Assembly: GCA_963847655.1 (NCBI GenBank)
Contig: CAWKAS010000002.1
Coordinates: 513,729 to 577,728, forward strand
Direction of reading: 5' to 3'
Length of the DNA: 64,000 nt
From: an uncultured Acidobacteriota bacterium
Lineage (GTDB): Bacteria > Acidobacteriota > Vicinamibacteria > Fen-336
Shown here: positions 13,001 to 27,915 of the stretch, one piece after another
Layout: each line of letters opens with the position of its first letter
Numbering within the stretch: position 1 is the stretch's first letter
The notes under the pieces: model-generated
Seen by the model: only the letters and a program-made list of their open reading frames with translations
Told to the model about the DNA's origin: nothing
The model's database searches: none
Made by a program: the position numbers and the translations under genes

Positions 13001-15265
13001 GCGAGAACCGTCTGACGCCGTTCGCGAACGACCCCGTCAGCGACCCGACGGCCGAGGCGCTGTTCGTCCGCGACGACGACACGGGCGAAGCCTGGTCTCC
13101 GACTCCGGGTCCGCTGCGTCGCGCGGCGACGGACCGCTTCCTGATCCGCCACTCGGCCGGCCTCACCCGCTTCTCGCGGATCGCGCACGGCATCCGCCAC
13201 GAGCTCGACGTCTTCGTGGACGCGAGCGATCCCGTGAAGCTCTCGCGGCTGACACTGACGAACGAGGAGCGATCGGCCACGTCGCCTCGAGCGTCTTCGC
13301 CTACAACGAGTGGGTCCTGGGACCGCCGCGCCGGGGCCAGGAGCTCCACGTCGTGACCGAGCTCGACGCCGCGACCGGCGCGATCTTCGCGCGCAATCCC
13401 TACAACACCGAGTACCCCGGACACGTGGCCTTCGCCCACGCGAGCGAGGCCGTCCGCTCCGCGACCGGCGACCGGGCGTCGTTCCTGGGCCGCAACGGGT
13501 CGCTCGCGCAGCCGGCCGCTCTCGCCCGCGAGGCGCTCTCCGGTCGCTTCGGCGCGGGTCTCGACCCCTGCGCCGCGCTGCACCTTTCGGTCGCGCTGGC
13601 CCCCGGCGAGACGCGCGTGCTCGTGTTCCTGCTCGGCCAGGCAAGGGACGCGTCCGCCGCTCGCGAGCTCGTCTCGCGTCACGGCTCGACGGCGGCGGCC
13701 GAGTCCGCGCTCCGCGCCGTGCGTCAGGCGTGGGACCGGACGCTGGACGCGGTGCAGGTCAGCACGCCGGACGATTCCTTCGACCTGCTGATGAACCGCT
13801 GGCTTCTCTACCAGGACCTGAGCTGCCGGCTGTGGGCGCGGTCCGGGTACTACCAGCCGGGCGGAGCCTTCGGCTTCCGCGATCAGCTCCAGGACGTGAT
13901 GGCGCTCGCGCTCGCTCGGCCGGACCTCACCCGCGAGCACCTGCTGCGGGCGGCCGGCCGTCAGTTCGTCGAGGGCGACGTCCAGCACTGGTGGCACGAG
14001 CCGAGCGGCCGGGGCACCCGCACCCGCTGCTCGGACGACCTGCTGTGGCTGCCGTACGCGGCGGCGCACTACGTGCGGACGACCGGAGACACGGCCGTGC
14101 TCGACGAGAGCGTACCGTTCCTGGAGGCCCCACCGCTCGCTCCGGACTCGCAGGAGGCCTACATCCAGCCGCGCGTCTCCGCCGAGAGCGGGCTCGCTCT
14201 TCGAGCACTGCCTGCGCGCGATCGACAAGGGCCTGACCGCCGGCGCGCACGGGCTGCCGCTGTTCGGAAGCGGAGACTGGAACGACGGGATGAACCGCGT
14301 GGGCTGGCGTGGCCGCGGCGAGAGCACCTGGCTGGGCTTCTTCCTCCACGGCGTGCTCACCGAGTTCGCGCCCCTGTGCGACGAGCGGGGCGACGCGGAT
14401 CGAGCGGAGCGCTATCGCCGCGAGGCGGCCCGCCTCGCGGGGATGCTCGAGCGGACGTGGGACGGGGAGTGGTACCGGCGCGGGTACTACGACGACGGCT
14501 CGCCGCTCGGATCGGCCCAGAACGACGAGTGCCGGATCGACTCGATCGCCCAGTCCTGGGCCGTGCTCTCGGGGGCCGTGCCCGAGCGCTTTGCCGACCG
14601 CGCCATGGATGCGGTCCGTGCGCACCTCGTGCGGCGCGGACACCGGCTGGTGGCGCTGCTCACGCCTCCCTTCGACCGCTCGGCTCAGGAGCCCGGCTAC
14701 ATCAAGGGCTACCCGCCCGGGGTTCGCGAGAACGGAGGGCAGTACACCCACGCCGCCGTGTGGACGGTGATGGCCATGGCGCGGCTCGGGTACGGCGACG
14801 AAGCGGCCGAGCTCTTCCACATGCTGAACCCGGTCAATCACACCCGTACCGGCGGCGGACGTCGAGCGCTACAAGGCCGAGCCGTACGTTCTCGCGGGTG
14901 ACGTCTTCGCGCACCCGTCCCACGCCGGTCGGGCGGGCTGGACCTGGTACACCGGCTCGGCGGGCTGGATGTACCGGGCCGGCCTCGAGAGCATCCTCGG
15001 CCTGAAGCGCCGCGGCGCGATCTTCGAGATCGATCCCTGCATCCCGGCGGCCTGGCCCGCGTACTCGATCGACTGGCGCTTCGGGGCGACACGCTACGCA
15101 ATCGAGGTCGTCAATCCCGGAGCGCCGCTCCCGGGGCGTCGCCCGAGCCGTGCTCGACGGCACCGCGGTCGATCCGCGTGCGATTCCACTGTCGGACGAT
15201 GGGGGGCGACACGAGGTGAGGTCGTCCTCGGCGAGCGTGTCACCGCCGCCATGCGGTCAGGCTGA
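7067..15265 (+). pseudogene. Cyclic beta-1,2-glucan synthase (NdvB/ChvB/Cgs-like; GT84 + GH94-type domains), reading frame interrupted by at least 15 frameshifts
   Basis: Pieces spread over all three plus frames. N-terminus: LLSIERLEERAKALA and EWLLDNYHLVASEIR. GT84 region: TMVVVPTLLTSVE...RYCITLDSDTRLPRD...HARRQHRWVRGDWQ. Middle: WRYFEDFMGPEDHGLPADNFQE...VAHRTSPTNIGMGLLATLAAHD and EGHLLNWYDTQSL..YVSTVDSGNLAG. GH94-like C-terminus: [25 protein letters not shown]...DVQHWWHEP...[11 protein letters not shown]...[19 protein letters not shown]. Frame switches near 7305, 7915, 9855, 9995, 10300, 10440, 10860, 11130, 11925, 12330, 12790, 12960, 13290, 14180, 14870 and 15130-15200. Confidence 0.7.
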
Positions 15266-15311: not shown

Positions 15312-16322
15312 TCACGGGGTGAGGCTGTTCAGCGCCACGAACGCCCCGCCGTTTCGCTCGCACAGCAGGCGCATGAGCGTGGCGAAACGCACCCCGGTGT
15401 TCTCCCCGTATCGGGCCTGGGAGAAGATCGTCGGGAAGCCGATGGCGTGGATGCGCACCTTGCGCTCCCCGCTCCGGTCGGGGCGGTTGAGGCGGTCGAC
15501 GGTCTCCAGCACCCGGTCGATGGAGTCGCCGGTGAACTCGTCGCCGAAGACGTAGAGGCTGATCCGGCGGTCCTGGCGCCAGTACGTGCGGATGGCGCTC
15601 TCGATCCCCTCCACCGGGCTGGAGTTCGAGAAGGCGTTCCAGCCGCGCAGCCGGTTCATGATGGCCGTCCGCCGGGCCTTCGTGTCGGGGATCCACTTCC
15701 CGGAGTATCCGGAGAACATGTAGACCCCCTCGTCGTTCATGATCTGCAGGCCCTTCACCTTCGGGTAGGCGTCGAGGACCTCCTTCATCTTGCGCTGCAC
15801 CTGGGGCCAGGCGAAGCGCTGCATCGAGCCCGAGGTGTCGATGATGAAGATGATGTACTCGCTGTCGACCGGGATCCCCCCCACCGGGGCCTCCGGGGGA
15901 CGGCGGTAGACCCTCTCCGCCTGGAGTCGCTTCATCTCCTCGCTGAGGGCCTGCTGCGCCGCCACCAGGCGCCCGGCGATCGTGTCCTGGATCTCCGACA
16001 TCTGCCGGCTGGCCTGGTACTGACCCTGGATGTCCGTGAGGTCTCCCCGCAGCCGGGCGACGTTCTTCGTCTCCTCCGAGAGCTGCTCCTCGCGGCTGCG
16101 GAGGGCCCGTTCGAACTGCGTCGTCTCCCCTCGGACCACGTGGAGCTCCTCCTCGAGGCGCGCGATGAGCCCCTGCAGGTCCTGCTGGGCCCGCTCGAGC
16201 ACCAGGGGCTCCCCCATCTTGTTGAGGACGAAGAGGAGGATGATGGCCCCGAAGCCGCAGCACACGGCGTCCAGAAAGGACAGGGAGAAGACCTCGACGT
16301 CCCGCCGCCCCCGCCTCCTCAT
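15312..16322 (-). CDS. ExbD/TolR-like N-terminal membrane anchor + coiled coil + periplasmic vWA (MIDAS) domain, paralog B
   Basis: N-terminus RRDVEVFSLSFLDAVCCGFGAIILLFVL has the ExbD/TolR-type pattern (basic tail, N-V-x-P/S-L-x-x-D, TM helix). Long coiled coil. vWA with DxSxS MIDAS motif IIFIIDTSGSMQ. Start overlaps the upstream stop (ATGA). Confidence 0.7.
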   Translation of the reverse strand: MRRRGRRDVEVFSLSFLDAVCCGFGAIILLFVLNKMGEPLVLERAQQDLQGLIARLEEELHVVRGETTQFERALRSREEQLSEETKNVARLRGDLTDIQGQYQASRQMSEIQDTIAGRLVAAQQALSEEMKRLQAERVYRRPPEAPVGGIPVDSEYIIFIIDTSGSMQRFAWPQVQRKMKEVLDAYPKVKGLQIMNDEGVYMFSGYSGKWIPDTKARRTAIMNRLRGWNAFSNSSPVEGIESAIRTYWRQDRRISLYVFGDEFTGDSIDRVLETVDRLNRPDRSGERKVRIHAIGFPTIFSQARYGENTGVRFATLMRLLCERNGGAFVALNSLTP

Positions 16323-17413
16323 GGCCAGTCGCTCGAGGGGGTCATCATCGAGCCCCGCGTGGCCATCGCCACCTTCCAGAAGGCGGGAGACGCCATCGGG
16401 TCGCCCTCCATCGGGTAGAGAATGACGTTGACCGGCACCCCGCGCGGCAGCGCGTCGAGCGCGCGCTCCAGCAACCGGAGCCGGTCCTTGCTGGAGATCG
16501 TCTTGCGCCCCGGGGCCTTCTCACCCTGGGTGGGAAGTCCGTCGGTGAGGAGCACGATGTTGTCCGGGGGCGGGTTCATGGCCCGGGCGGCGGCGAAGGC
16601 GTGGTGGAGGCTGGTGCCCCCGATGGGCGCGGTCTGGCGGAGCACGGCGATCGCCTCGTCCAGCTTCGCGCCGTCGCCGACCTCGAGCCAGACCCCTTCG
16701 GTGCCCTCGAGCACCGGCCGGGCCCGCGTGTCGAAGGCGTAGATCTGGTACCGCGCCTTCGGAGGCATCTGGGCAGCGAGCCAGTCCACCGCCTTCACCG
16801 CCTGCTGCCACTTGTCGGCGCGCATGCGGATCTCGGGAGCCAGGAAGCGGCGGCGCACCGCGTTGACGATGTCGGCGGCGAGCATGCTCGCGGAGGCATC
16901 GACCAGGACGAAGATGCGCTGCCCGCCGACCTTCAGCCCCGAGAGGTACTGTCGGTCACCGTCCCCCACGAAGCTGCGGATGTTGCGGCCGGGGACCTCC
17001 TCCCGTGGCGGCCCGCCCGAGAGCCGCTTCGCCCCCTCCTCCAGCGACTTCAGGTCCGCCTTGAGCTTGTTGACGTGCTCGCGGGTGGCGACGTTCTGCT
17101 GGTCGTAGGTGGCCAGCTCCTCCTCGATCTCGCGCAGCACGGCGAGCAGGCGGGTGGACAGCCCCTGCGTCACGACCCTCTGCCGCTCGATCTCGCGCAG
17201 GGAGTTCCTCACCTCGACGAGGTTCTCCTGCCCGTCGAGGACCTCCTCCTCCCGCATCGTGACCTCCGCCTGGAGGGCCTCGGTGACGTGGGTGAAGGTC
17301 TCCCCGGCCCGGGCGGCCACGATCATGTGAAACAGGATCAACGCCCCGAAGCCGCAGGTGATGCAGTCGAGCAGCGAAAGGCTGAAGATGTTCGTCTGGC
17401 GCTTGCGGGCCAC
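16319..17413 (-). CDS. ExbD/TolR-like anchor + coiled coil + vWA domain, paralog A (GTG start)
   Basis: VARKRQTNIFSLSLLDCITCGFGALILFHMIV; coiled coil; MIDAS FVLVDASASML. The 948 aa in the ORF track is an upstream open-frame artefact. GTG start with RBS GGAGGAGTGAGG overlapping the upstream stop. Confidence 0.65.
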   Translation of the reverse strand: MARKRQTNIFSLSLLDCITCGFGALILFHMIVAARAGETFTHVTEALQAEVTMREEEVLDGQENLVEVRNSLREIERQRVVTQGLSTRLLAVLREIEEELATYDQQNVATREHVNKLKADLKSLEEGAKRLSGGPPREEVPGRNIRSFVGDGDRQYLSGLKVGGQRIFVLVDASASMLAADIVNAVRRRFLAPEIRMRADKWQQAVKAVDWLAAQMPPKARYQIYAFDTRARPVLEGTEGVWLEVGDGAKLDEAIAVLRQTAPIGGTSLHHAFAAARAMNPPPDNIVLLTDGLPTQGEKAPGRKTISSKDRLRLLERALDALPRGVPVNVILYPMEGDPMASPAFWKVAMATRGSMMTPSSDWP

Positions 17414-17415
17414 CC

Positions 17416-18831
17416 TCACTCCTCCACCGCGATGACGAGCATCTCCTGGCCCGGGCTGCCCACGCGCACCCGGTCGCCGGGGAAGACGACGGCGCGCCCC
17501 ACGATCTGCTCCCCGTTGACGAAGGTCCCGTAGGTGCTCAGGTCCTCCAGCACGACCTCGCCGCCGACCTCGAAGAAGCGGCAGTGGGCCCGGGAGACGC
17601 CGGCGGTCTCGCCGGCGAGGCGGAGGCCCCGGGAGCCCTCCGGGGGGGCGGTGCCCACGACGAGGGGCTCCGCGGTGAGGGGGCGGGCGTGGTGGCCCAG
17701 GAGCAGGTGGGTCGGTCGCGCTCCGCCCCCGAGGGGGAAGGGGGGGGGCGCCTGGGGCACCGGGGCGGACCGGGGCACCGCCGCCGAGTCCGCAGCGCCC
17801 TCGTCGGGCGAGGGGCGCCGACGCTCGAGACGCGTGACGAAGAGCCGGAGGCCTCCCTTCACCGCGCGCAGCCTCTCGTGCGCGCGGAGGGCGCCGGCCG
17901 CCGCCAGCGACCCGGGCACCCGGACCACCCCGCTCCCCCGCATGGTGGCCAGGCGGGCCACCAGTCCCGGGATCCGTGCGGCGTGGGCGGAGACGAGAAG
18001 GGTCGTCGGCTCGCCCGGGTGCTTGAGAAGGCTCATCTTCTGGGCCAGCTCCTCGGCGTACTTCCGGGCCCACTCCTCGACCTCCGACCGCTCCACCTCG
18101 ACCTCGTGATCGCGCCCGCCACCGTCCAGGGAGAGGGCCACGCGGTCCTCCTCCTCGAGGCGCTCGAGCCAGCCGGGGAGTCGGTCGTGCAGGGCCTGCT
18201 CGGTCTCGGCGTCGTGGAAGGGGTCGAAGCGCGTCTTGTGGACGAAGGCCTGGGCGATGCGGCGAGCCAGGGCGTCGTGAACCTCCTCGAGACCCCAGCG
18301 CTCGATCGTGGCCACCCTCTCGCGGACGATCTCGTCTCCCTGCCGCAGCTCGGTCACGGTGGCCCGGTGCAGGTGCACGTCGGCCAGGAGCAGCCGCTCG
18401 CCCGGGAATCCGGTGCTGGCCGCGGCCACCGCGGCGTCGACGAGACCGACCACCGGCATCTCGAGGGCCTGGGTGATCCCCAGGAGACGGCCCAGCGCCT
18501 CCGACCCATGGAAGCCGGGCACGGCCAGGACGACCTCGCTCACCCCCGCCCCGACCTTCGTCCAGAGGCTCCGGAGGTGCGCGTGGACCAGGTCGGCGGA
18601 GGTCAACCCGTCGGGGAACGGCCGACCGAGGGGCGCGGCATCGAGGCGCTCCCAGAAGCGGCTCATCACGAAGCGCGGCCGGAGGCGCGCGCGGCTGAGG
18701 GCCTGCGGGCCCACGAGGACTCGTCCCTCCTCGACGAGGGCATAGCCCGGGCTGGGCCCGACGACCGTCCCTTCCCCGTCGACCCCGAGGACGCCGGCGT
18801 CGGTCACGTCGAAGGCGAGCGCGCGAGCCAC
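17416..18831 (-). CDS. Actin/Hsp70-fold (ASKHA-like) ATPase with C-terminal FHA domain
   Basis: N-terminus MARALAFDVTDAGVLGVDGEGTVVGPSPGYALVEEGRVLVG has a glycine-rich phosphate-loop style. C-terminus CRFFEVGGEVVLEDLSTYGTFVNGEQIVGRAVVFPGDRVRVGS is a typical FHA signature. Confidence 0.65.
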   Translation of the reverse strand: MARALAFDVTDAGVLGVDGEGTVVGPSPGYALVEEGRVLVGPQALSRARLRPRFVMSRFWERLDAAPLGRPFPDGLTSADLVHAHLRSLWTKVGAGVSEVVLAVPGFHGSEALGRLLGITQALEMPVVGLVDAAVAAASTGFPGERLLLADVHLHRATVTELRQGDEIVRERVATIERWGLEEVHDALARRIAQAFVHKTRFDPFHDAETEQALHDRLPGWLERLEEEDRVALSLDGGGRDHEVEVERSEVEEWARKYAEELAQKMSLLKHPGEPTTLLVSAHAARIPGLVARLATMRGSGVVRVPGSLAAAGALRAHERLRAVKGGLRLFVTRLERRRPSPDEGAADSAAVPRSAPVPQAPPPFPLGGGARPTHLLLGHHARPLTAEPLVVGTAPPEGSRGLRLAGETAGVSRAHCRFFEVGGEVVLEDLSTYGTFVNGEQIVGRAVVFPGDRVRVGSPGQEMLVIAVEE

Positions 18832-18846
18832 GAGCCCCTCCCCGCT

Positions 18847-19641
18847 CTAGGCCTGCAGGTGCTGGAGCAGGTGCTCGTCCACGTAGCCCTCGGTGTCGAG
18901 GACGAGGCGCTCCTGGCGGAGCTGGAGCTGGTGCAGGACGAACATGATCCCGAGGCTCAGGAGCAGCGCGATGAAGGTCGAGTTGAAGGCGGTGCCGAGG
19001 CTGGCGGTCACCCCGGAGATGTCGCCCTGCACCGCGCGGTGGGCCTGGGTGAGGGCGTCGCCGATGCCCCGCACCGTGCCGATGAAGCCGATCGACGGAA
19101 TCGCCCACGCGATGTAGCGGATCATCGCCAGCTCGGAGTCGAGACGGTCGGACTCGGCCTCGCACACCTCGCCGGCGATGGCGGAGGCGTCCTGGATGCT
19201 CCGGGTGGCCCGGAAGCGCTGCAGGGCGGCCAGGAGCGTGCGGGGGAGGAGCCGCCGCTTCTCGGTCTCGGGGAGGCCCTGGATCTGCCGGGCGTACTCA
19301 CGGGCGTCCTCGGGGAGGATGCGGGAGCCCGGGGCCACCGGCACCAGCTCCTGCTCGACGAGATTCCGCTCCCGGGCCACCGAGAGCCACTTGGATCCCA
19401 TGATCGCCAGCGCCCACAGCCCCAGGACGAAGCAGGCCTCCTGCTCGAAGTCCTTGATGACCACCCAGACCGAGCGGGCCGGGACGTACTCGGGGTCCTC
19501 CCGCATCAACCGCGCCTGCTCGGCGAGCACGGCCTCCGCGTTCGGGCGGACCACCGTCACGTAGAAGGCGTGCACGAGGACGAAGGCGAGGACGAGCGAC
19601 GAGAGCTGGTAGACAAAGTCGCCGGGCTGGGGCTTCTTCAT
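18847..19641 (-). CDS. MotA/TolQ/ExbB-family proton channel protein
   Basis: TM helices and the family core SIGFIGTVRGIGDALTQA...ASLGTAFNSTFIALLLSLGIMFV. Start taken at MKKPQPGDF; the in-frame extension upstream runs through the tandem repeat and is unlikely to be real. Confidence 0.75.
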   Translation of the reverse strand: MKKPQPGDFVYQLSSLVLAFVLVHAFYVTVVRPNAEAVLAEQARLMREDPEYVPARSVWVVIKDFEQEACFVLGLWALAIMGSKWLSVARERNLVEQELVPVAPGSRILPEDAREYARQIQGLPETEKRRLLPRTLLAALQRFRATRSIQDASAIAGEVCEAESDRLDSELAMIRYIAWAIPSIGFIGTVRGIGDALTQAHRAVQGDISGVTASLGTAFNSTFIALLLSLGIMFVLHQLQLRQERLVLDTEGYVDEHLLQHLQA

Positions 19642-19654
19642 CTCGTCGTCTGCC

Positions 19655-19896
19655 CTATCGTCTGTGGAACGCGTCGTTCTATCGTCTGCGGAACGCATCG
19701 TTTGCCCGTCGTTCCGCAGACCTTCCGTTGCCACGTTCGCCCGTTCATATCAGCGAATCCTGTTTCCTCTCTCCCCTATCGTCTGCGGAACGCGTCGTTC
19801 TATCGTCCGCGGAACGCATCGTTGTCTCATCGTTCCGCAGACCTTCCGTTGCCACGTTTGGCCGTTCATATTGGCTAAGCCTGTTTCCTCTCTCTC
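19655..19896. repeat. Tandem direct repeat, 2 x ~122 bp at ~90% identity. Each unit carries two direct copies and one inverted copy of the 13 bp motif CGTCTGCGGAACG.
   Basis: Unit 1 ctatcgtctgtggaacgcgtcgttctatcgtctgcggaacgcatcgtt...cgttccgcagacc...ttgccacgttcgcccgttcatatcag...cctgtttcctctctcc; unit 2 is nearly identical. Lies immediately 5' of the MotA-like operon and 3' of the small secreted-protein gene. Confidence 0.8.
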
Positions 19897-19913: not shown

Positions 19914-20207
19914 CTAGATATCCACCGGAAAGGCCACTCCCTGGTCGGCGGGGACCTTCTCCGTGGGCACGAATTCCTCGAGCTGCTTCTCGGCCTCCGC
20001 CGTCGGTGAGGGCTTCGGTGAGGGTGTCGGTTCGGGCGTCGGTTCGGGCGTCGGTTCGACGGCGGGCGCCTCGGCCTCCTTCTGCACCGGCGCGGGGTCC
20101 GTCGGTGTCGCCGGGTCCGGCCCGGGCGCGGGGGCCTGACCTCCAGCGGCCGCGATCGCCGCCACCGCGAGGAGAGCGAACAGCAGGTTGCGCACGAGAA
20201 CGTTCAT
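19914..20207 (-). CDS. Small secreted Pro/Glu/Thr-rich repeat protein (97 aa; signal peptide + PEPT repeats)
   Basis: MNVLVRNLLFALLAVAAIAAAGG then EPTPEPTPEPTPSPKPSPT, encoded by a ggttcgggcgtc triplet DNA repeat. 22 bp downstream of the DUF3604 gene. Confidence 0.5.
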   Translation of the reverse strand: MNVLVRNLLFALLAVAAIAAAGGQAPAPGPDPATPTDPAPVQKEAEAPAVEPTPEPTPEPTPSPKPSPTAEAEKQLEEFVPTEKVPADQGVAFPVDI

Positions 20208-22170: not shown

Positions 22171-24591
22171 TCACTCCGCGTACCGCGCGATGCGGAAACC
22201 CAGGTCCGGCCGGGGCTCCCTGGCGTAGTCGCGGTAGCTCAGGCGGAGCTCGGTGACGGAGGCGTGCCTCCAGCTCGCCCCCCTGATCACATGGTACTCG
22301 CCCTCGGCGGGACCGGTAGGGTCGCGCACGAGGCTGCCCGACATCGAGGGGGTGATCGTGTACAGGTCGTGCATCCACTCCGCCACGTTGCCGCCGAGGT
22401 GGTAGATCCCCAGCGCGTTGGGCGCGAGGGAGCCCACCGGGGCCGTGGCCGCATACCCATCGGTGTAGTCGGGCAGCGTGCGCCGGAGGAGCTCGCGCGC
22501 GCTCTGGTCGCCGTAGTTCCCGGCCTCCGGGGGAACCGGGAAGGCCTTGCCCCAGGGATAGCGCAGGGGGCCCTGGCCGCCCGGGTAGCGCGCCACCCGC
22601 TCCCACTCGGCCTCGGTGGGGAGACGGTACCCGGTCGTCAGCGGGACCGTCGCCGCGAGCTGGCCCCCGCGCCGCTCGTAGGCCGGGGGCAGGCCGTCCT
22701 TCTGGCTGAGCCAGTTGCAGTAGGCGGCGGCCTCCTCCCAGCCGACGCGCACCACCGGGTAGTTGTCGATGTTCAGGCTCTGGGTCCCGGCACGCCCCGA
22801 GTCGTGGGTGGCGACGAACTCGCGGAACTGGGCGTTGGTGACCTCGGTGGTGGCCATGTAGAACGGCCGGACGAGCTCGACGTCGCGAAGCGGCTCGTTC
22901 GCGCGGCGGCCGGGCTCGCGGCGCGACGCCCCCATCTGGATCCGCATGCCCTTCACCAGGACCAGCTCCTGACCGGAGGCGGCGGTGATCCGAGGCGGCA
23001 GCGACTCCTCCCGGGCCTGCTCCTCGCTCTTGAGGGCGACCTTCACCGCCTGGGGAAAGCCGGGCCGGGGGGTCACCGTCTGCTTGTGGGGGAGGTAGCC
23101 CGGGCGGCGGATCACGATCTCGTGGGGGAGCGCGATGAGGGTCAGCGTCTGGCTCGCCCGGCCCCGGGGCTCTCCGTCCACCAGCAGCTCGGCGTCCGGG
23201 GGGCGCGCGTCGACCTGCACCTCCCCCATGCGGGGAGCGAGGCGCAGCGACTCCTCGCGGCGCTCCCCGGGGGCGATCTCCACCGCCAGCGTCGCGTCCT
23301 CGTAGCCGGCCTTCCCCACCTTCACCGCGAGGGCGCGACGAGGGGCCACGACCAGCTCGACGGGCGTCTCCCCGCGCCACTGGCCGTCCACCGTCACGGC
23401 CGCCCCCGCGGGATCGCTGGCCAGCACGAGCACGGCGTCCGCGGGAACCAGGTCGACTCCGGGCAGGGTGAGGGGCTGGCCGGCCACGACGTCGATCCGC
23501 CGCGTGGCGGGCTTGAAGGCGCCCAGCGAGTAGGTCACCGCCCGACGTCCGGCGCTGACCGCGGCGGTGAGAGGGGTCGTGCCGAGGGACCGCCCGTCCA
23601 CCCGCACCGTCGCCCCCGGCGGGTTGGTGGCGAAGGTCACGGGCGCGCTGTTGGCCAGGAGCTCGACCTCCAGCCTCTGCTCGATGCCCCGGCCCTCGAT
23701 CTCGAGCACGGTGCGGAAGGCGACGTAGCCCTCGGCGCGGACCACGATCTCGCGCTCGCCCGCGGGCACGGAGACCGGCGCGAGCGGCGAGGTCCCCACC
23801 ACCTCGCCGTCGACCAGGACCTCGGCGCCCTCGACGTCCCCGGCGTCGACGAGGAGACGGCCGGGAAGACGCTCGAGGGTGTACTCCAGCGTCTGGCGGG
23901 ACGCGGTGGTCACCTCGACGGACACCTCCAGACGCTGGTACCCCTCCTTCTCCGCGACCAGGGTGTAGGAGCCGGGCCGAGCCAGGTAGCTCGAGCCATA
24001 GGAGACGGCGGGGGGGAAGCCCTCGAGGGCGACGTCGTCGGGTTCGGGCTCGATCGCCACCTCGACCGAGCGCGCGGTGGCGATGAAGGCAACGAGCAGC
24101 GCCGCCGCCGCGACGACGGCGCCGATCAGCAGACGCGAGAGCCGGCGGCGCAGGTCGCTCCTCGGACTCGCCCCCGCCGTCCCCGGGGTGAAGGTGATCG
24201 GGGTGACGGCGCGCCCGGGGGCCGCGTCGTCCGCGCCCGGGGCCGGGTCACGGGGCGGGGGCACCAGGACGACCGGCGGCTCGGTGGGGTTGAGGTCGGC
24301 GAGCTGCTCGACGCGGAGGTGCAGGCCGTCAGAGCGTCGGGCGGCCTCGAGATGGGTGGCCCCGATGCGCAGCACGTCGCCGTCGCGCAGCCAGTGCGAG
24401 GCCGTCAGCCGGGCGCCGTTGCAGAGCACGGGCACCCCGGCCGCCGGCTGGATGAACACCTCGCCCTCCTCGAAGCCGAGCCAGGCGAGGGGAGCCGGCG
24501 TCCCGGGCATGACGACCGGGGAGTCGGGGCCGCCGAGGGCGATCGGGAAGTCCGCCTCCCCCAGACGGGTCGTCCGCCCCCCGTCCTCCAC
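22171..24591 (-). CDS. Multidomain membrane protein: N-terminal FHA-like, TM helix, PEGA repeats, C-terminal FGE-sulfatase (SUMF1-like) domain
   Basis: FHA-like VLCNGARLTASHWLRDGDVLRIG. TM LIGAVVAAAALLVAFIA. Several PEGA-like repeats. C-terminus NAQFREFV...PVVRVGWEEAAAYCNWLS...YRLPTEAEWERVAR...GGNVAEWMHD...HVIRGASW matches FGE/SUMF1. Confidence 0.75.
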   Translation of the reverse strand: MEDGGRTTRLGEADFPIALGGPDSPVVMPGTPAPLAWLGFEEGEVFIQPAAGVPVLCNGARLTASHWLRDGDVLRIGATHLEAARRSDGLHLRVEQLADLNPTEPPVVLVPPPRDPAPGADDAAPGRAVTPITFTPGTAGASPRSDLRRRLSRLLIGAVVAAAALLVAFIATARSVEVAIEPEPDDVALEGFPPAVSYGSSYLARPGSYTLVAEKEGYQRLEVSVEVTTASRQTLEYTLERLPGRLLVDAGDVEGAEVLVDGEVVGTSPLAPVSVPAGEREIVVRAEGYVAFRTVLEIEGRGIEQRLEVELLANSAPVTFATNPPGATVRVDGRSLGTTPLTAAVSAGRRAVTYSLGAFKPATRRIDVVAGQPLTLPGVDLVPADAVLVLASDPAGAAVTVDGQWRGETPVELVVAPRRALAVKVGKAGYEDATLAVEIAPGERREESLRLAPRMGEVQVDARPPDAELLVDGEPRGRASQTLTLIALPHEIVIRRPGYLPHKQTVTPRPGFPQAVKVALKSEEQAREESLPPRITAASGQELVLVKGMRIQMGASRREPGRRANEPLRDVELVRPFYMATTEVTNAQFREFVATHDSGRAGTQSLNIDNYPVVRVGWEEAAAYCNWLSQKDGLPPAYERRGGQLAATVPLTTGYRLPTEAEWERVARYPGGQGPLRYPWGKAFPVPPEAGNYGDQSARELLRRTLPDYTDGYAATAPVGSLAPNALGIYHLGGNVAEWMHDLYTITPSMSGSLVRDPTGPAEGEYHVIRGASWRHASVTELRLSYRDYAREPRPDLGFRIARYAE

Positions 24592-24605: not shown

Positions 24606-26546
24606 TCAGATGGCCTCCTCGCAGCGCACCACGATCGGTGGCGGCGTGGCCGCGGGCTCCACCACCAGCTGCCGACGCACGTCGCGGTAGCCGCTCCGCG
24701 TCCCGACCACGGTGTAGGTGCCCGGCCGAAGGTCGAGCGTCAGGCGCTCGAACGCGCCGAGGCGCCCCACCTTGTGTACCACGACCTCGGTCTTGCCGTC
24801 GGACTCCAGCACCACTCCCACCGGCGTGCGCATCTCCACGAGGGCGCGCTCGAGGTCCGCCACCTGCTTGCGGTGGCGCGGTCCGGGGGCGTCGATCTCA
24901 CGGGCCTGCTGGAGGAGCACCTCGGCCTCGCCCGCCACCGCGTCCGTGGCCAGCCGCAGCGGGTGGTCGACGTGGTAGGCCAGCTTCTCGGCCAGCTCCG
25001 CGCGCCGCGTCGCCCGCTCGCGACCCTCGAGGGCGAACGCGACCGCGGGGTCGAGTTTGAGCGCCGTCTCGTACTCGGCCAGGGCCCGGCGCCAGTCCTC
25101 TTGCGTCTCGTAGCCGCGGGCCAGGTCGCGCTGCCGGGCGAGGGCGGCCGTCCGCTCCGCCTCCTCGATGCGCCCTCGAGCGTCGGCCACCACGGGAGAG
25201 CCGGGCTGGAGGGCGGCGGCACGCGCCAGCCCCTCCCGCGCCGCGGGCCAGTCGGCCCGCTCGAGGGCCGCCTCCGCGTCCGACATGGCCGCCGCGAACG
25301 CCTCGCTCGCCCCCCCTTCCGGCGGCTCGCGAGAGGGGTTCGTGGATGGGGGTTCCACCGCCTCGGGCGCCGGCTCACGAGGCGCGGGGGGCGGTGTGGG
25401 AGTCGCCTCCGCCGGCATCGCCCGCTCCGCGGCTCGCGCGGGAGGGGACTCGAGCCGAGGCGTCGGGTGGGACTCCGCCTCGGGTGGAGGGGGTGAGGGC
25501 ACGGCTTCGGCGGTGGCGGCGACCGGCGGGGCCGGGCGTTCGGCCAGGCGGGGCAGGACCAGCACCACGAACAGCACGGCGGCGGCGAGGAGTCCGAGCA
25601 GAGCGGCCTGGGCGAGGGGAAAGGAGCGAGGCGACGGGGGCGACGGCGGCGAGAGAGGGGCCTTCGGGGTCGGGACCCCCACCCCGCGTACACGAGGAGG
25701 CGGCTGCAGACGCACCTCCCGCGGACGCGACACCGGGCGGGCCGGGCCCCCGAGCTCCTCTTCGATTCCCCGCAGGGCCTCTTCGACCGCGGCCATGTCG
25801 CGCGGTCTCTCCTCGGGCGCCTTCGCGAGCATCGACGCGACCAGCCCCCGCAGGCTCTCCGGGATGGGGTGGGGCCCGGCCAGGGGCGGCGGCGGCACGG
25901 AGCGGAGCTCGTCCCGGGTGGCCCCCGCGGGGCGGCTCGAGAGGAGCTCGTGGAGCAGCGCGCCCAGGGCGTACACGTCGTCCGCAGGCTGCGCGGGGGC
26001 GCCCGCGCGCTGCTGGGGGCTCATGCTCGCCCGGGAGCCGCCCCCGTGGAGGACCAGGCCCTCGTCGTCGAGGGAGGCGGCGACGGCCGCGATCCCGAAG
26101 TCGGCGAGGTGGGCACGGCCGGATGCGTCGAGCAGGACGTTGGTGGGCTTGACGTCGCGGTGCACCACCCCGAGCCCGTGGAGGTGGCCGAGGGCGTGGG
26201 CCACCTCGCCCGCGAGACGGACGATCGCCCGCGGCTCGCCGCCACGCAGCCGACCGGCGTCGCCCCCCGGCATGTAGCGCGAGACGACGGCCGCGCCGTG
26301 GGGTCCCTGCTCGAAGCCGTACACGGGGACGATCCCCGGGTGCTGCACCTTGCGGACGAGCCGGGCCTCGCGGCGCAGGAGGGCGACGCGGTCCGCGGGG
26401 GCGTCAGCGGGGAGGAGCTTGGCCACGACCTCCTCGCCCCGCGAGGCGTCGCGGGCCAGCCAGGCCTCGCCCATGCCCCCGCGCCCGAGCCGGCGCACGA
26501 GCGTGAGGTGGGGCAGGAACTCGAGCCCGGGCTCCAGCGGGGTCAT
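24606..26546 (-). CDS. Ser/Thr protein kinase with Pro-rich linker, TM, TPR-like region and C-terminal PEGA domain
   Basis: Start at MTPLEPGLEF (ORF-track N-extension is an artefact). GxGxxG LGRGGMGEAWLA; VAKL Lys; HRDVKPTNVLL; DFG; PEGA at the C-terminus. Confidence 0.8.
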   Translation of the reverse strand: MTPLEPGLEFLPHLTLVRRLGRGGMGEAWLARDASRGEEVVAKLLPADAPADRVALLRREARLVRKVQHPGIVPVYGFEQGPHGAAVVSRYMPGGDAGRLRGGEPRAIVRLAGEVAHALGHLHGLGVVHRDVKPTNVLLDASGRAHLADFGIAAVAASLDDEGLVLHGGGSRASMSPQQRAGAPAQPADDVYALGALLHELLSSRPAGATRDELRSVPPPPLAGPHPIPESLRGLVASMLAKAPEERPRDMAAVEEALRGIEEELGGPARPVSRPREVRLQPPPRVRGVGVPTPKAPLSPPSPPSPRSFPLAQAALLGLLAAAVLFVVLVLPRLAERPAPPVAATAEAVPSPPPPEAESHPTPRLESPPARAAERAMPAEATPTPPPAPREPAPEAVEPPSTNPSREPPEGGASEAFAAAMSDAEAALERADWPAAREGLARAAALQPGSPVVADARGRIEEAERTAALARQRDLARGYETQEDWRRALAEYETALKLDPAVAFALEGRERATRRAELAEKLAYHVDHPLRLATDAVAGEAEVLLQQAREIDAPGPRHRKQVADLERALVEMRTPVGVVLESDGKTEVVVHKVGRLGAFERLTLDLRPGTYTVVGTRSGYRDVRRQLVVEPAATPPPIVVRCEEAI

Positions 26547-26568: not shown

Positions 26569-27915
26569 TCACGACCCCTGGGTCTCGGCCCCGAAGACGC
26601 CCGCATCGAGGGGCGGGGCCGGGGGAGGCTCGACCACCACGGGGGGCGCCATGGCCCCGGTCCCTTCGCCCGCGGGGGCGGCGGTGGCCTCGGCCGGCGC
26701 CGGGGGCGGGGAGCTGACGTTGATGTCCTCGGGCAGCGCGGCGTCGGTCCGGGCGATCTGCCGGAGCAGCGCCCTCCATTGCCCGAACTGCTCCTCTGCC
26801 GACCCCTTGAGCTCGACGATCTTCCCGTCGACGTCCACGATGAGCTCCGACACGTCGGCGCCGAAGGACTCCCCGAGCTCCTCGAGGGCGTCCTTGTGGA
26901 TCTCCGACTCGGCCTTGTCCTGGAAGCCGCTCTGGATGGCGGCGACCCCGCCGATGATCGCGATGTCCCGGATGTCCCCGTCCGCACCCCTGCGGTCGCC
27001 CGGGGCGAACAGGCCCCCGAGGATGGCCAGGCCACCGCCGATCCACTTCGCCCACTTCTTGTTGTTGATCGCGTCGTAGGCCGCCTGCTCGGTGTAGCTG
27101 TTGGCCCGCCAGTCGTCGTAGGGCTTGCCCATCCGCGCGTGGAAGTCGGAGTAGTACGCGTTGAGGGTGTCCACGAACATGTCGTCCCGCTCGCGGATGA
27201 GGCGGAGGCGGAGGAGCATCGGGTCGGACTCGTCCGGCAGCCGCGCCACCTCGTACCGGCCCTTCCCGTCCGTCTCGAGGTAGGGACCGAACGTGTCGGG
27301 GGCGAACTCCGAGGCGAAACGGAGGCGGGCCACCTCGCGGATGTGCACCAGCTCCTCTCTCTTCCGCTTCTCGCGCGCCTTCAACAGGTCGTTGGCGATC
27401 TCGTTGTAGAGGCTCTGGAAGGGATCGAGTCCGTCCACGTTCTCGGCGGCGTAGGACAGCACCCGGGCCTTGTGCTGGTAGTCCTCGTCGAGCCACTTCC
27501 GTCCCGTGGCGTCCCAGGCCACGACCTGCACCTTGAGCTCCTTGCCGTGGGACTTCTCGATCTTGCCGAGGATGGACAGCTCGGCCCAGGGCACGCCCCC
27601 GGGCACCACGCGGACCGCGCCCCACTGCCCGGTGGACTGCAGGGTGTTGCGCAGATGGGTGGGGATGAAGCGCGCCTCGGCCTTGCGCACCGACGGCTGG
27701 ACGCCCTTCTCGGTGAGGGCCTCGCGGTCGTGGTCGTCGATGCTGGGCGAGAACAGGTCGATGGCCACGTCCAGCAGCCGCTCCTCCGGGATCTCGCCGT
27801 CGGGGAGATCCGCCTCGACGTAGTCGTCACCGGCCAGGGCGACGGGGGCCGGCCCCAGTCCGACGAGCACCGCCAGCACCGCCGCGAGCACCTTCCCAGC
27901 ACGACGTCCGTTCAT
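26569..27915 (-). CDS. Secreted/lipoprotein-like hypothetical protein
   Basis: MNGRRAGKVLAAVLAVLVGLGPAPVALAGDD signal; RBS GGGGGAG; no family recognised. Confidence 0.55.
   Translation of the reverse strand: MNGRRAGKVLAAVLAVLVGLGPAPVALAGDDYVEADLPDGEIPEERLLDVAIDLFSPSIDDHDREALTEKGVQPSVRKAEARFIPTHLRNTLQSTGQWGAVRVVPGGVPWAELSILGKIEKSHGKELKVQVVAWDATGRKWLDEDYQHKARVLSYAAENVDGLDPFQSLYNEIANDLLKAREKRKREELVHIREVARLRFASEFAPDTFGPYLETDGKGRYEVARLPDESDPMLLRLRLIRERDDMFVDTLNAYYSDFHARMGKPYDDWRANSYTEQAAYDAINNKKWAKWIGGGLAILGGLFAPGDRRGADGDIRDIAIIGGVAAIQSGFQDKAESEIHKDALEELGESFGADVSELIVDVDGKIVELKGSAEEQFGQWRALLRQIARTDAALPEDINVSSPPPAPAEATAAPAGEGTGAMAPPVVVEPPPAPPLDAGVFGAETQGS

What the first reader, a model, noticed from the sequence alone, without database searches (positions are those of the whole stretch)
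15312..19641. MotA/TolQ/ExbB-like channel + FHA-bearing actin/Hsp70-fold ATPase + two ExbD/TolR-like anchors fused to coiled-coil vWA domains: candidate undescribed PMF-driven motor module
Four tightly coupled minus-strand genes (gap 15 bp, GTG overlap, ATGA overlap). The two paralogous membrane proteins start with an ExbD/TolR-type N-terminus (basic tail, N-I-F-S-L-x-x-L-D, single TM). Instead of a TonB-box or peptidoglycan-binding periplasmic domain they carry a long coiled coil and a vWA domain with an intact DxSxS MIDAS motif. This suggests a 5:2-type stator (MotA5 with a heterodimer of the two ExbD-like proteins) whose periplasmic ends bind a ligand or protein through MIDAS. The cytoplasmic partner is an ASKHA-fold ATPase ending in a canonical FHA domain, implying phosphothreonine-dependent control. 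Ser/Thr kinases sit a few kb upstream. The arrangement recalls Agl/Tol/Exb/Zorya stators but matches none of them.
Basis: partly seen in the sequence, partly recalled or inferred. Interest (0 to 1): 0.8.

Follow-up and report, generated by a model that had tools for sequence, protein, structure and literature searches.

The report
MotA-like motor with vWA partners
These four genes are real and widely conserved, and look like a proton-driven membrane motor whose two central subunits end in vWA binding domains; they sit in a nine-gene cell-envelope system with kinase/FHA control, and while the motor core was predicted on paper in 2025, nothing about it has been tested.

Summary
Four tightly coupled minus-strand genes encode a MotA/TolQ/ExbB-family protein, a cytoplasmic Hsp70-fold protein ending in a canonical FHA domain, and two paralogous bitopic proteins. 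Each paralogue has a basic tail, one TM helix with an invariant Asp, a coiled coil and a vWA domain with a MIDAS motif.

- The core idea, a TolQ-like pentamer plus a heterologous pair of "transpore-helix" vWA proteins with no TolR/ExbD, was already proposed from comparative genomics and AF3 models (PMC12204202, 2025). It is therefore not undescribed.
- Homology of the N-termini to ExbD/TolR/MotB is not statistically detectable. The resemblance lies in shared features only.
- The Hsp70-like protein has lost the glycine phosphate- and adenosine-binding loops, so "ATPase" is unproven. It is missing from 6 of 79 related loci.

New here: the four genes are the 3' half of a nine-gene cluster conserved in at least 80 genomes of Acidobacteriota, Gammaproteobacteria, Desulfobacterota, Myxococcota and the PVC group. 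The cluster order is:
- lipoprotein X1
- CsgG/TolB-N-like lipoprotein X2
- Ser/Thr kinase–TM–TPR protein
- FHA-like–TM–PEGA×4–FGE-like protein
- small secreted peptide
- MotA-like protein, Hsp70/FHA protein, vWA, vWA

The kinase domain co-varies with the FHA domains. The function is unknown.

The parts
18847..19641 (-). Gene A: MotA/TolQ/ExbB-family inner-membrane channel protein, 264 aa
   Evidence: Pfam PF01618, 4.5e-13. The closest solved relative is TolQ, which aligns to A residues 151-258. P182, T189 and T222, equivalent to TolQ P138, T145 and T178, are invariant in 74 orthologues. The score is far below the equivalog cut-offs for TolQ, ExbB, MotA and ZorA.
17416..18831 (-). Gene B: cytoplasmic protein with an Hsp70-NBD-like (ASKHA) domain at residues 1-340, a disordered linker, and a canonical FHA domain at residues 375-468; 471 aa
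16319..17419 (-). Gene C: bitopic protein with a basic tail, a TM helix carrying invariant Asp18, a coiled coil of about 120 residues, and a periplasmic vWA domain with a full MIDAS motif; 366 aa
   Evidence: Pfam VWA_2 and VWA_3. D18, G25, L29 and S176 are invariant in 45 diverse family members. D174, S176, S178, T269 and D293 are at least 95% conserved in 85 orthologues. One TM segment at residues 16-34.
15312..16322 (-). Gene D: paralogue of C with the same architecture (TM helix with Asp18, coiled coil, vWA domain with DTSGS); 336 aa
   Evidence: Full-length alignment with the C family. The motif FSLSFLD-x3-CGFGA is conserved in 78 of 79 orthologues. D162, S164 and S166 are conserved. It is always present together with C.
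19914..20207 (-). Small secreted peptide, 97 aa: signal peptide, a variable Pro-rich linker, and a conserved C-terminal motif F-x-P-[ST]-E-x4-[DE]-x2-[VI]-x-F-P-x-D-I
   Evidence: Found immediately upstream of the MotA-like gene in 74 of about 79 loci. Alignment A5 shows P94 invariant and F79, P81, E83, F93, D96 and I97 at least 90% conserved. No family match.
22171..24591 (-). FHA-like domain, TM helix, four PEGA domains and an FGE-sulfatase-like domain; 806 aa
   Evidence: Pfam PEGA at 2.6e-46 (four copies) and FGE-sulfatase at 8.6e-44. TM segment at residues 154-172. A profile of the N-terminal domain hits PDB FHA domains, including Ki-67 at E 0.0015, EssC, Rv1747 and GarA. Conserved directly upstream of the small-peptide gene in 78 loci.
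24606..26546 (-). Ser/Thr protein kinase, TM helix, then a periplasmic TPR region and a beta-sandwich region; 646 aa from the ATG at 26546
   Evidence: Pfam Pkinase at 7.3e-30. TM segment at residues 314-332. Weak TPR and CarboxypepD_reg hits in the C-terminal part. The C-terminal part is conserved in 72 loci. The kinase domain is present in 32 loci, always together with B carrying FHA and with the FHA-like N-terminus of the PEGA protein.
26569..27915 (-). X2: secreted protein, a lipoprotein in most orthologues, with an alpha/beta domain like CsgG, PelC and the TolB N-terminal domain, plus a long helical hairpin; 448 aa
27930..28958 (-). X1: low-complexity Gly/Ser-rich protein with two conserved helical motifs (LDxxLxxSLGEFD, and DDDVVARQLREAAMxExDPELREKLWDEYR). 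It is a lipoprotein in orthologues; the start in this window is uncertain.
   Evidence: tblastn match to L003 X1. Present in 46 loci. Alignment A7. No Pfam match.
19649..19894 (.). Tandem repeat of two 121-bp units carrying four copies of an 18-nt motif, lying between the small-peptide gene and gene A. Possibly regulatory; whether it belongs to the system is unproven.
   Evidence: TRF reports 2.0 copies at 89% identity. The motif CTATCGTCYGCGGAACGC occurs four times here and nowhere else in the window, against 0.02 expected. No Rfam match.

Best explanation
Genes A, C and D most likely encode an inner-membrane ion-driven motor of the MotA/ExbB/TolQ type. In this model a pentamer of A surrounds the two N-terminal helices of a C-D heterodimer.

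Proposed mechanism (inferred):
- The invariant Asp18 of C and D takes the role of MotB D32, ExbD D25 and TolR D23.
- That Asp faces the invariant Thr189/Thr222 ring of A.
- Proton flow drives relative rotation of the pentamer and the dimer.
- The C-D dimer projects a coiled coil of about 120 residues into the periplasm and ends in two MIDAS-containing vWA heads. These heads bind an acidic ligand or protein partner.

What is shown: the motor genes are the 3' half of a nine-gene cluster that predicts an envelope-spanning machine. Candidate periplasmic and outer-membrane partners are the small secreted peptide with its conserved acidic C-terminus, the TM-PEGA-FGE-like protein, the kinase-TM-TPR protein, and the CsgG/TolB-N-like lipoprotein X2 together with lipoprotein X1.

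Gene B, an Hsp70-fold domain plus an FHA domain, is most likely a cytoplasmic accessory or regulatory subunit. I infer that it docks through pThr-FHA binding under control of the cluster's Ser/Thr kinase. It is probably not a canonical ATPase.

The biological output is unknown. Candidates are envelope maintenance, export, adhesion or surface motility.
For: Cluster conservation:
- The four genes are translationally coupled.
- The order MotA-B-C-D recurs in 80 genome loci from at least five phyla. At least 587 genome stretches encode a relative of C.

Gene A:
- It belongs to PF01618 and aligns with TolQ TM2-TM3.
- P182, T189 and T222, equivalent to TolQ P138, T145 and T178, are invariant in 74 orthologues.

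No alternative partner:
- No ExbD/TolR gene occurs in any locus (gene tables).

Genes C and D:
- They always occur as a pair.
- Both have basic residues followed by a single TM helix, which predicts an N-in topology.
- The Asp is invariant in 45 diverse family members down to 21-31% identity, and in 163 of 164 orthologues.
- MIDAS residues are at least 95% conserved.

Published support:
- An independent published analysis reached the same model for TolQ-like plus TPH-vWA pairs. Its AF3 complexes place the Asp pair inside the Thr ring (PMC12204202).

Gene B and regulation:
- B has the Hsp70-NBD fold at high confidence.
- Its FHA domain has invariant R, S, R, H and N pThr-binding residues.
- The kinase domain is present in 32 loci, always with B carrying FHA and with the FHA-like N-terminus of the PEGA protein. 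Every locus where B is missing or lacks FHA, and where the kinase gene is fully covered by the contig, also lacks the kinase domain.

Envelope partners:
- Signal peptides, lipoboxes or TM segments are present in the small peptide, X1, X2, the kinase protein and the PEGA protein.
- X2 resembles ring-forming outer-membrane lipoproteins: CsgG, PelC and a flagellar LPHT-ring protein.
- The same layout persists in very distant members at 31-33% identity, including Puniceicoccaceae.
Against: - No assembly, stoichiometry or ion flux was tested here. No multimer modelling tool was available, so 5:2 rests on analogy and on AF3 models published for a related, possibly identical, family.
- The transpore helix has no statistically detectable homology to ExbD, TolR or MotB: no PDB HMM hit, no Pfam hit, and hhalign scores within the range of shuffled controls.
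- The helix also carries a CGFGA motif that is absent from the E. coli ExbD, TolR and MotB N-terminal sequences I compared.
- The positions equivalent to TolQ E173 and P187 are not conserved in A.
- B lacks the Hsp70 glycine loops. It is absent from 6 loci and lacks FHA in 4, so it is not core.
- The co-variation of kinase and FHA domains is not corrected for phylogeny.
- The ligand of the vWA domains is entirely conjectural.
- I could not obtain the Idiomarina sequences used in PMC12204202. Identity of the two families is therefore inferred from shared features and taxon range, not from an alignment.
Confidence: 0.55

Rival explanations
1. A transmembrane sensing and signalling device rather than a force-generating motor. 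In this reading the periplasmic vWA heads, the PEGA-FGE-like domain and the TPR domains sense an envelope ligand or envelope damage. The MotA-like/TPH complex then acts as a gated ion channel or conformational relay. The output is phospho-signalling through the Ser/Thr kinase, the two FHA domains and the Hsp70-like scaffold.
For: - The kinase and two FHA-type domains are built into the cluster and co-vary.
- B lacks canonical ATPase loops and looks like a scaffold.
- FGE-like, PEGA and TPR domains are typical ligand- or protein-binding modules.
- No obvious secreted substrate or effector gene is conserved in the cluster.
Against: - About a third of the loci that are fully covered lack the kinase domain altogether, and some lack B, yet they keep MotA, C, D, the small peptide, PEGA-FGE and X2. 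Phospho-signalling therefore cannot be the core function.
- Strict invariance of the Asp and of the Thr/Pro ring residues is the signature of ion-coupled 5:2 machines.
Confidence: 0.2
2. A surface-motility or adhesion machine analogous to the Myxococcus Agl-Glt system. A TolQR-like motor would move or expose a vWA adhesin, and FHA- and TPR-containing partners would link it to cytoplasmic and outer-membrane parts.
For: - The domain repertoire overlaps with Agl-Glt: motor, FHA, TPR, vWA and outer-membrane lipoproteins. The literature includes PMC9946355 and PMC11761067 (listed).
- PMC12204202 itself suggests a gliding role for vWA transducers.
- There is a weak NCBIfam hit of B's FHA domain to GltG, E 0.078.
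Against: - No Glt or Agl equivalog scores are met.
- The vWA domains here are tethered to the inner membrane by the transpore helix. They are not outer-membrane lipoproteins like CglB.
- The cluster is found mostly in Woeseiaceae, Steroidobacteraceae, Desulfobacterales and Vicinamibacteria, which as far as I know are not noted gliders.
- This rival concerns the output rather than the mechanism, so it can coexist with the best explanation.
Confidence: 0.1
3. A Zorya-like anti-phage defence system, in which a MotA-like/TPH complex senses envelope perturbation by phage.
For: Zorya also uses a MotAB-like 5:2 complex with a long coiled coil. There are weak PADLOC and NCBIfam ZorA hits at E 0.01-0.07.
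Against: - No ZorC, ZorD or ZorE, nuclease or other effector gene is present.
- The PADLOC hits are far from significant.
- The cluster keeps the same nine-gene order across phyla, next to housekeeping genes such as lepA. That is unlike variable defence islands.
- The coiled coil is periplasmic, not cytoplasmic.
Confidence: 0.04
4. C and D are merely membrane-anchored vWA proteins of the BatA/BatB or TerY type. On this view they happen to lie next to an orphan TolQ paralogue, and the TM Asp has no ion-coupling role.
For: The N-terminus shows no detectable sequence homology to ExbD, TolR or MotB. vWA proteins with N-terminal TM anchors are common.
Against: - Adjacency to the MotA-like gene is conserved in 79 of about 85 loci across phyla. 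No MoxR, DUF58 or PP2C partners are present.
- A charged residue in a TM helix would not be expected to stay invariant down to 21% identity without a function.
- No TolR/ExbD partner is available for A.
Confidence: 0.04

Closest known systems
TolQ-like + 'TPH-vWA' pairs predicted in Origin and Evolution of Bacterial Periplasmic Force Transducers (Mol Biol Evol 2025, PMC12204202, section 8, Fig. 4c-d)
   Same: - A TolQ-like gene is tightly linked to a heterologous pair of vWA proteins, with no tolR/exbD.
- The N-terminal helix carries a conserved Asp and lacks the SHLS/His motif.
- The Thr ring is conserved in the pentamer protein.
- The taxon range includes Proteobacteria and the PVC group.
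   Different: - The paper mentions only the motor and vWA genes. It does not describe the Hsp70-fold/FHA gene that lies between them, the kinase, the PEGA-FGE protein, the small peptide or the X1 and X2 lipoproteins.
- It does not list Acidobacteriota.
- I could not align the window's proteins with the paper's Idiomarina reference, because no sequence is given in the text or in the supplements held here. Family identity is therefore inferred.
TolQ-TolR (Tol-Pal) and ExbB-ExbD (Ton) 5:2 motors
   Same: - A is a PF01618 member, and its nearest solved relative is TolQ.
- The residues equivalent to TolQ P138, T145 and T178 are invariant.
- The partner has a basic tail and a single TM helix with an Asp near the cytoplasmic end.
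   Different: - Equivalog scores are far below the cut-offs.
- The partner has no ExbD/TolR periplasmic domain and no detectable sequence homology. Instead it carries a coiled coil plus a vWA domain.
- The partner is a heterodimer of paralogues.
- No TolA/TonB-type third subunit is evident.
MotA-MotB / PomA-PomB flagellar stator
   Same: Channel protein plus a bitopic partner with an essential TM Asp. The periplasmic end of the partner anchors the unit to an envelope structure.
   Different: No OmpA-like peptidoglycan-binding domain, no MotB plug match, no flagellar context, and a MotA equivalog score of 12.8 against a cut-off of 303.8.
Zorya ZorA-ZorB
   Same: A MotAB-like complex that bears a very long coiled coil and is not flagellar.
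   Different: - The coiled coil here is on the bitopic subunits and is periplasmic.
- There are no ZorC, ZorD or ZorE genes.
- The ZorA HMM E-values are only 0.01-0.07.
- The chromosomal synteny is conserved and not island-like.
T9SS/gliding GldK-GldL-GldM-GldN (PorKLMN)
   Same: An operon that combines an FGE-sulfatase-like envelope protein, a pentameric motor protein, a bitopic dimer reaching across the periplasm, and outer-membrane-associated ring components. This comparison is an analogy from general knowledge. The FGE-like domain and the ring-lipoprotein-like X2 are shown.
   Different: - No family match to a T9SS/gliding (Gld/Por) component other than the FGE-sulfatase-like domain appeared in the Pfam or NCBIfam scans.
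- The FGE-like protein here is anchored in the inner membrane by a TM helix and has PEGA repeats.
- vWA heads and kinase/FHA control are absent from the T9SS.
PilM-PilN-PilO (type IV pilus alignment complex)

Membership tests
MotA/TolQ/ExbB proton channel family (PF01618) | Match to the family HMM above the gathering score | tested here: met
   49.5 bits against a cut-off of 22.9, residues 132-250
MotA/TolQ/ExbB proton channel family (PF01618) | Conserved pore-lining Thr residues and TM2 Pro (TolQ T145, T178, P138) | tested here: met
   An ungapped alignment to TolQ maps these to T189, T222 and P182, each invariant in 74 of 74 orthologues
Canonical TolQ / ExbB / MotA / ZorA (NCBIfam equivalogs) | Score above the curated equivalog cut-off | tested here: not met
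   tolQ 27.4 against 221; exbB2 19.5 against 135; MotA1 12.8 against 303.8; ZorA_4 12.1 against 500
ExbD/TolR (PF02472) and the MotB N-terminal TM/plug region | Detectable sequence homology of the N-terminal TM region or of the periplasmic domain | tested here: not met
   No Pfam hit for the full proteins or for 40 N-terminal segments at E up to 10. A profile search of the PDB finds no ExbD, TolR or MotB. hhalign scores are not above shuffled controls: 2, 13 and 3 of 60 shuffles reach the real score.
ExbD/TolR/MotB-like function (transpore helix) | Basic cytoplasmic tail, a single TM helix, and an invariant acidic residue near the cytoplasmic end of the helix | tested here: met
   D18 is invariant in 45 diverse members and present in 163 of 164 orthologues. 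There is one TM segment at residues 14-34.
5:2 motor complex | Assembly of five A subunits around two B-type helices | not testable with these tools
   No multimer prediction tool was available. AF3 models exist only for the family described in PMC12204202.
TPH-vWA / TolQ-like family of PMC12204202 | vWA proteins in heterologous pairs next to a tolQ-like gene, with no syntenic tolR/exbD | tested here: met
   C, D and MotA occur together in 79 of about 85 loci. No ExbD/TolR is found.
TPH-vWA / TolQ-like family of PMC12204202 | Sequence relationship to the paper's Idiomarina loihiensis reference proteins | not testable with these tools
von Willebrand factor A domain | HMM match and the MIDAS motif DxSxS...T...D | tested here: met
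   C: VWA_2 at 29.6 bits against a cut-off of 27, with D174, S176, S178, T269 and D293 at least 95% conserved. D: VWA_2 at 24.8 bits, just below the cut-off, with DTSGS and the D of GDxF conserved; the Thr position in D is uncertain.
FHA domain (PF00498) | HMM match and the pThr-binding residues Arg, Ser, His and Asn | tested here: met
   40.9 bits against a cut-off of 20.7. R401, S413, R414, H416 and N439 are invariant in 29 homologues.
Hsp70 / ASKHA ATPases | ASKHA two-lobe fold | tested here: met
Hsp70 / ASKHA ATPases | Phosphate-1, phosphate-2 and adenosine glycine-rich nucleotide-binding loops | tested here: not met
   hhalign register against DnaK: DLGGGTFD aligns with DVHLHRATV, and GGQTRMP with SAHAARIPG. 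The N-terminus reads FDVTDAG instead of IDLGTTN. There is no Hsp70 Pfam hit.
Zorya defence system | ZorA and ZorB together with ZorC/ZorD or ZorE effector genes | tested here: not met
   PADLOC returns only ZorA at E 0.011-0.013. No other component is found.

The most novel reading that the evidence does not exclude
The nine-gene cluster encodes a previously unrecognised envelope-spanning, PMF-driven machine, a sibling of Ton, Tol-Pal, Agl-Glt and the T9SS motor.

In this reading:
- A MotA-like pentamer turns around a heterodimeric vWA-tipped coiled-coil shaft.
- The shaft grips, through its MIDAS sites, a dedicated secreted peptide or a ring of CsgG/PelC-like lipoprotein at the outer membrane.
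- On the cytoplasmic face, a degenerate Hsp70-fold protein is recruited by Ser/Thr phosphorylation through its FHA domain and acts as a clutch or brake.

That would be the first phospho-regulated 5:2 motor, and the first in which the central dimer is a heterodimer carrying integrin-like heads.
Probability: 0.3. Interest if true: 0.85.

Novelty: new variant of a known kind. Interest (0 to 1): 0.66.

Why it matters
Ion-driven 5:2 motors power flagella, TonB-dependent uptake, Tol-Pal, gliding, the T9SS and Zorya defence. Each new family has revealed a new way of turning proton flow into work.

This family is abundant. At least 587 species genomes carry it, and there are 1277 sequence clusters at 50% identity. 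It spans several phyla of environmental Gram-negative bacteria, and nothing about it has been tested experimentally.

Three of its features have no counterpart in the characterised motors: a heterodimeric central pair tipped with MIDAS/vWA heads, a conserved Hsp70-fold/FHA cytoplasmic partner, and a built-in Ser/Thr kinase.

The conserved nine-gene parts list defined here, and its presence in cultured strains, make the 2025 in-silico hypothesis directly testable. The cultured strains are Steroidobacter agaridevorans, Peristeroidobacter agariperforans and Kineobactrum sediminis.

Tried and rejected
- **PADLOC scan of the four proteins.** Only insignificant ZorA and coiled-coil hits. The defence reading is rejected.
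- **jackhmmer from E. coli ExbD and TolR against all ORFs of 85 loci.** ExbD found nothing. TolR found the small-peptide family. This traces to a single borderline first-round hit (E 4e-4 in a database of 16.8k sequences). That alignment covered TolR residues 25-97 and did not include the Asp, and the search then drifted onto that family. I treat it as an artefact.
- **Transpore-helix profile against PDB and Pfam.** The profile found no ExbD, TolR or MotB in the PDB; the only hits were NDUFB4 at E 0.4. Pfam scans of 40 N-termini found nothing relevant. hhalign against ExbD, TolR and MotB was not significant.
- **Sequence-level comparison of B with DnaK.** Not significant, E 0.22. Only the fold-level comparison worked.
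- **X2.** No Pfam or PDB sequence relatives.
- **Unavailable or failed look-ups.** The afdb50 fold library was not available. The look-up of P0001's own contig failed.
- **Literature.** Searches for the nine-gene combination, and for MotA + vWA + Hsp70/FHA, found only PMC12204202. A Ferrigenium preprint that matched the search terms is unrelated.
- **Other scans.** Rfam on the upstream repeat found nothing. The promoter and terminator scan was uninformative.
- **BatA/BatB and TerY-P readings.** Rejected because there are no MoxR, DUF58 or PP2C partners.

Full report
**1. The observation**

- Gene A is 18847-19641 (264 aa).
- Gene B is 17416-18831 (471 aa) and starts 15 bp after A's stop.
- Gene C is 16319-17419. 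Its GTG start overlaps B's TGA stop. A second GTG at 17413 gives the 364-aa database form, P0001.
- Gene D is 15312-16322 and joins C through an ATGA overlap.

Pfam gives the following:
- A: MotA_ExbB, 49.5 bits.
- B: an FHA domain at residues 410-458, 40.9 bits. Nothing matches B's first 400 residues.
- C: VWA_2, 29.6 bits.
- D: VWA_2, 24.8 bits, just under the cut-off.

Both C and D begin with basic residues followed by FSLS[FL]LD and a single hydrophobic segment.

**2. What each protein is**

*Gene A.* Its nearest solved relative is TolQ. The ungapped alignment maps TolQ P138, T145 and T178 onto A's P182, T189 and T222. Each is invariant in 74 orthologues. A is nevertheless far below the curated cut-offs for TolQ, ExbB, MotA and ZorA. 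It is a distinct branch of the family, not a stray TolQ.

*Gene B.* With a 29-sequence alignment it folds at pLDDT 88.6.
- A disordered linker leads to an FHA domain whose pThr-binding Arg, Ser, His and Asn residues are invariant.
- The fold claim is therefore right, but "ATPase" is unproven.

*Genes C and D.* They belong to one large family. It has 1277 clusters at 50% identity with E no greater than 1e-3, and 292 with E no greater than 1e-30.
- In 45 diverse members, down to 21-31% identity and including both window paralogues, the TM Asp (D18) is invariant. So are G25 and L29, and the first MIDAS Ser.
- Across 85 C and 79 D orthologues, the Asp is present in 163 of 164.
- The MIDAS residues are at least 95% conserved.
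- The basic-tail-then-TM arrangement predicts periplasmic vWA domains. B has no TM segment and should be cytoplasmic.

**3. Is the N-terminus "ExbD/TolR-type"?**

As a matter of sequence homology, this cannot be shown.
- A 40-position profile of the segment finds no ExbD, TolR or MotB in the PDB.
- Pfam scans of 40 N-termini find no ExbD or MotB plug.
- hhalign against E. coli ExbD, TolR and MotB puts the Asp residues in register. However, 2, 13 and 3 of 60 shuffled controls reach the real score.

As a matter of features and context, the resemblance is strong.
- There is a basic tail, a single TM helix and an invariant Asp near the cytoplasmic end.
- The proteins are always linked to a MotA/TolQ-like gene.
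- No exbD/tolR gene appears in any of about 85 loci.

I therefore say that C and D work like ExbD, TolR or MotB. I do not say they are members of those families.

**4. Context: a nine-gene system**

Relatives at 47-63% identity showed the same four genes preceded by further conserved genes.

A genome scan with the family alignment returned at least 587 genome stretches encoding a relative, and I analysed 80 loci. Iterative searches across them give one order:
- X1
- X2
- kinase-TM-TPR protein
- FHA-like-TM-PEGA×4-FGE-like protein
- small secreted peptide
- MotA-like protein
- B
- C
- D

The taxa are:
- Acidobacteriota (Vicinamibacteria).
- Many Gammaproteobacteria (Woeseiaceae, Steroidobacteraceae, Halieaceae, Lysobacterales).
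- Desulfobacterales, Myxococcales, Kiritimatiellia and Isosphaeraceae.

Three loci come from cultured strains: Peristeroidobacter agariperforans, Steroidobacter agaridevorans and Kineobactrum sediminis. Very distant members at 31-33% identity, including a Puniceicoccaceae genome, keep the PEGA-FGE, small gene, MotA, a B-sized gene of 475-499 aa, and two vWA genes. One of those B-sized proteins is clearly homologous to B (hhalign E 1e-19). The other is not detectably so.

In the window the parts are:
- X1 at 27930-28958.
- X2 at 26569-27915.
- The kinase at 24606-26546.
- The PEGA-FGE protein at 22171-24591.
- The small peptide at 19914-20207.

Two insertions are peculiar to this genome: a DUF3604 gene (20230-22152) and a 2 × 121-bp repeat (19649-19894).

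**5. The accessory parts**

- *Small peptide.* It has a signal peptide, a variable Pro-rich linker and a conserved C-terminus, F-x-P-[ST]-E-x4-[DE]-x2-[VI]-x-F-P-x-D-I.
- *X1.* It is a low-complexity lipoprotein with two conserved helical motifs.
- *PEGA-FGE protein.* Its N-terminal domain is FHA-like. A profile of it hits Ki-67, EssC, Rv1747 and GarA FHA domains, with a best E of 0.0015.
- *Kinase gene.* Its conserved part is the periplasmic TPR and beta-sandwich region. The kinase domain itself is optional.

**6. Co-variation**

Among the loci, the kinase domain is present in 32. In all 32, B carries its FHA domain and the PEGA protein carries its FHA-like N-terminus.

Ten loci have B missing (6) or lacking FHA (4). 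In the seven of these where the kinase gene is fully covered by the contig, the kinase domain is absent. In the other three the kinase gene is cut off or lies off the contig.

This supports a kinase-FHA regulatory layer placed on top of a core made of MotA, C, D, the small peptide, PEGA-FGE and X2. The counts are not corrected for phylogeny.

**7. What is already known**

A literature search found one directly relevant source: Mol Biol Evol 2025, PMC12204202, section 8 and Fig. 4c-d.

It reports TMH-tethered vWA proteins that:
- co-occur tightly with tolQ homologues and with no tolR/exbD;
- are mostly found in heterologous pairs;
- place that Asp, in AF3 models, inside the Thr ring of the pentamer;
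- are found mainly in Proteobacteria and Verrucomicrobia.

The paper does not mention the Hsp70/FHA gene, the kinase, the PEGA-FGE protein, the small peptide or the lipoproteins. It gives no experiments. Its reference sequences are not in the text or the supplements held here.

Reviews and surveys of 5:2 motors from 2023-2026 do not mention the system. Other searches found nothing.

**8. Mechanism**

*Shown:*
- the conserved nine-gene cluster;
- the family and fold assignments;
- the invariant Asp, Thr and Pro residues and the MIDAS residues;
- the predicted topology;
- the absence of ExbD/TolR;
- the kinase-FHA co-variation.

*Inferred:*
- A5:(C·D) assembles as a 5:2-type proton-driven motor.
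- The C-D coiled coil carries the vWA heads towards the outer part of the periplasm. If fully helical, about 120 residues span roughly 17-19 nm. There the heads bind a partner through their MIDAS sites.
- B docks on the cytoplasmic face in a phosphorylation-dependent way.

*Speculative:*
- The MIDAS ligand is the acidic C-terminus of the small peptide.
- X2 forms an outer-membrane ring.

I put 0.55 on the motor model as stated.

The main rival is a sensing and signalling device without mechanical work (0.2). It is weakened because many loci lack the kinase domain yet keep the core. An Agl-Glt-like motility role (0.1) concerns the output rather than the mechanism. Zorya-like defence (0.04) and coincidental adjacency (0.04) are poorly supported.

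**9. Verdict**

Three corrections apply:
- It is not undescribed at its core.
- It over-reaches on "ExbD/TolR-type" homology and on "ATPase".
- It is incomplete on extent.

I rate it a new variant of a known kind. It is a MotA/ExbB-type motor with a heterodimeric, vWA-tipped central pair, an Hsp70-fold/FHA partner and kinase control, inside a nine-gene envelope system that has not been described as such. Interest is 0.66.

Noticed in passing
window 20230-22152 (-): A DUF3604 gene (Pfam E 6e-243) sits inside the conserved cluster, between the PEGA-FGE gene and the small-peptide gene. In the roughly 73 other loci that cover both of those genes they are adjacent or nearly so, so this looks like a lineage-specific insertion.
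   Followed up: partly
window 19649-19894: A tandem repeat of two 121-bp units at 89% identity. Each unit holds two copies of the 18-nt motif CTATCGTCYGCGGAACGC spaced 24 bp apart. That gives four copies here, none elsewhere in the window, against 0.02 expected by chance. The repeat fills the otherwise short gap between the small-peptide gene and the MotA-like gene. There is no Rfam match. It may be a binding-site array or a small repeat element.
   Followed up: partly
window 27930-28958 (-) and 26569-27915 (-): The window's X1 has no signal peptide or lipobox, although its orthologues have L-x-G-C; the true start may be wrong or lost. The window's X2 has an ordinary signal peptide but lacks the lipobox Cys that is at least 90% conserved in orthologues.
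   Followed up: partly
window 22171-24591 (-), C-terminal FGE-sulfatase domain: The FGE-like domain ends ...RGASWRHASVTELRLSYRDY... with no Cys where, as I recall, catalytic FGEs have their Cys pair. That suggests a non-enzymatic binding or structural FGE-like domain, as in GldK/PorK. I did not check this against a reference alignment.
   Followed up: no
L002 13627-20642 and L003 13608-20564: In two Acidobacteriota-like relatives, the cluster is flanked on one side by lepA. On the other side are two MtrB/PioB porin plus multihaem cytochrome pairs, which are extracellular electron-transfer genes. This flank is not conserved in other loci.
   Followed up: no
L085 12982-13944 (-): In the very distant Puniceicoccaceae version of the cluster, a CsgG-family gene lies about 0.75 kb downstream of the second vWA gene, separated from it by a 229-aa gene. 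This echoes the CsgG/PelC-like fold predicted for X2.
   Followed up: no
L054 6501-6791 and the small-peptide family: E. coli TolR gives one borderline phmmer hit (E 4e-4 in a database of 16.8k ORFs) to a small-peptide orthologue. The hit covers TolR residues 25-97 and does not include the Asp. I judged it compositional, but I did not exclude that the small peptide is a decayed TolR/ExbD remnant.
   Followed up: partly
window 59809-60966 (-), 61489-64000 (+): Further protein-kinase-like ORFs lie near the 3' end of the window. They were picked up by the kinase profile and are unrelated in position to the cluster.
   Followed up: no
window 11142-15005 (+): In this large GH94-family ORF, only residues 83-260 and 864-994 match Pfam GH94 domains. 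The translation in between looks low-complexity and out of frame. A frameshift, or an ORF over-extended in GC-rich sequence, is possible.
   Followed up: no
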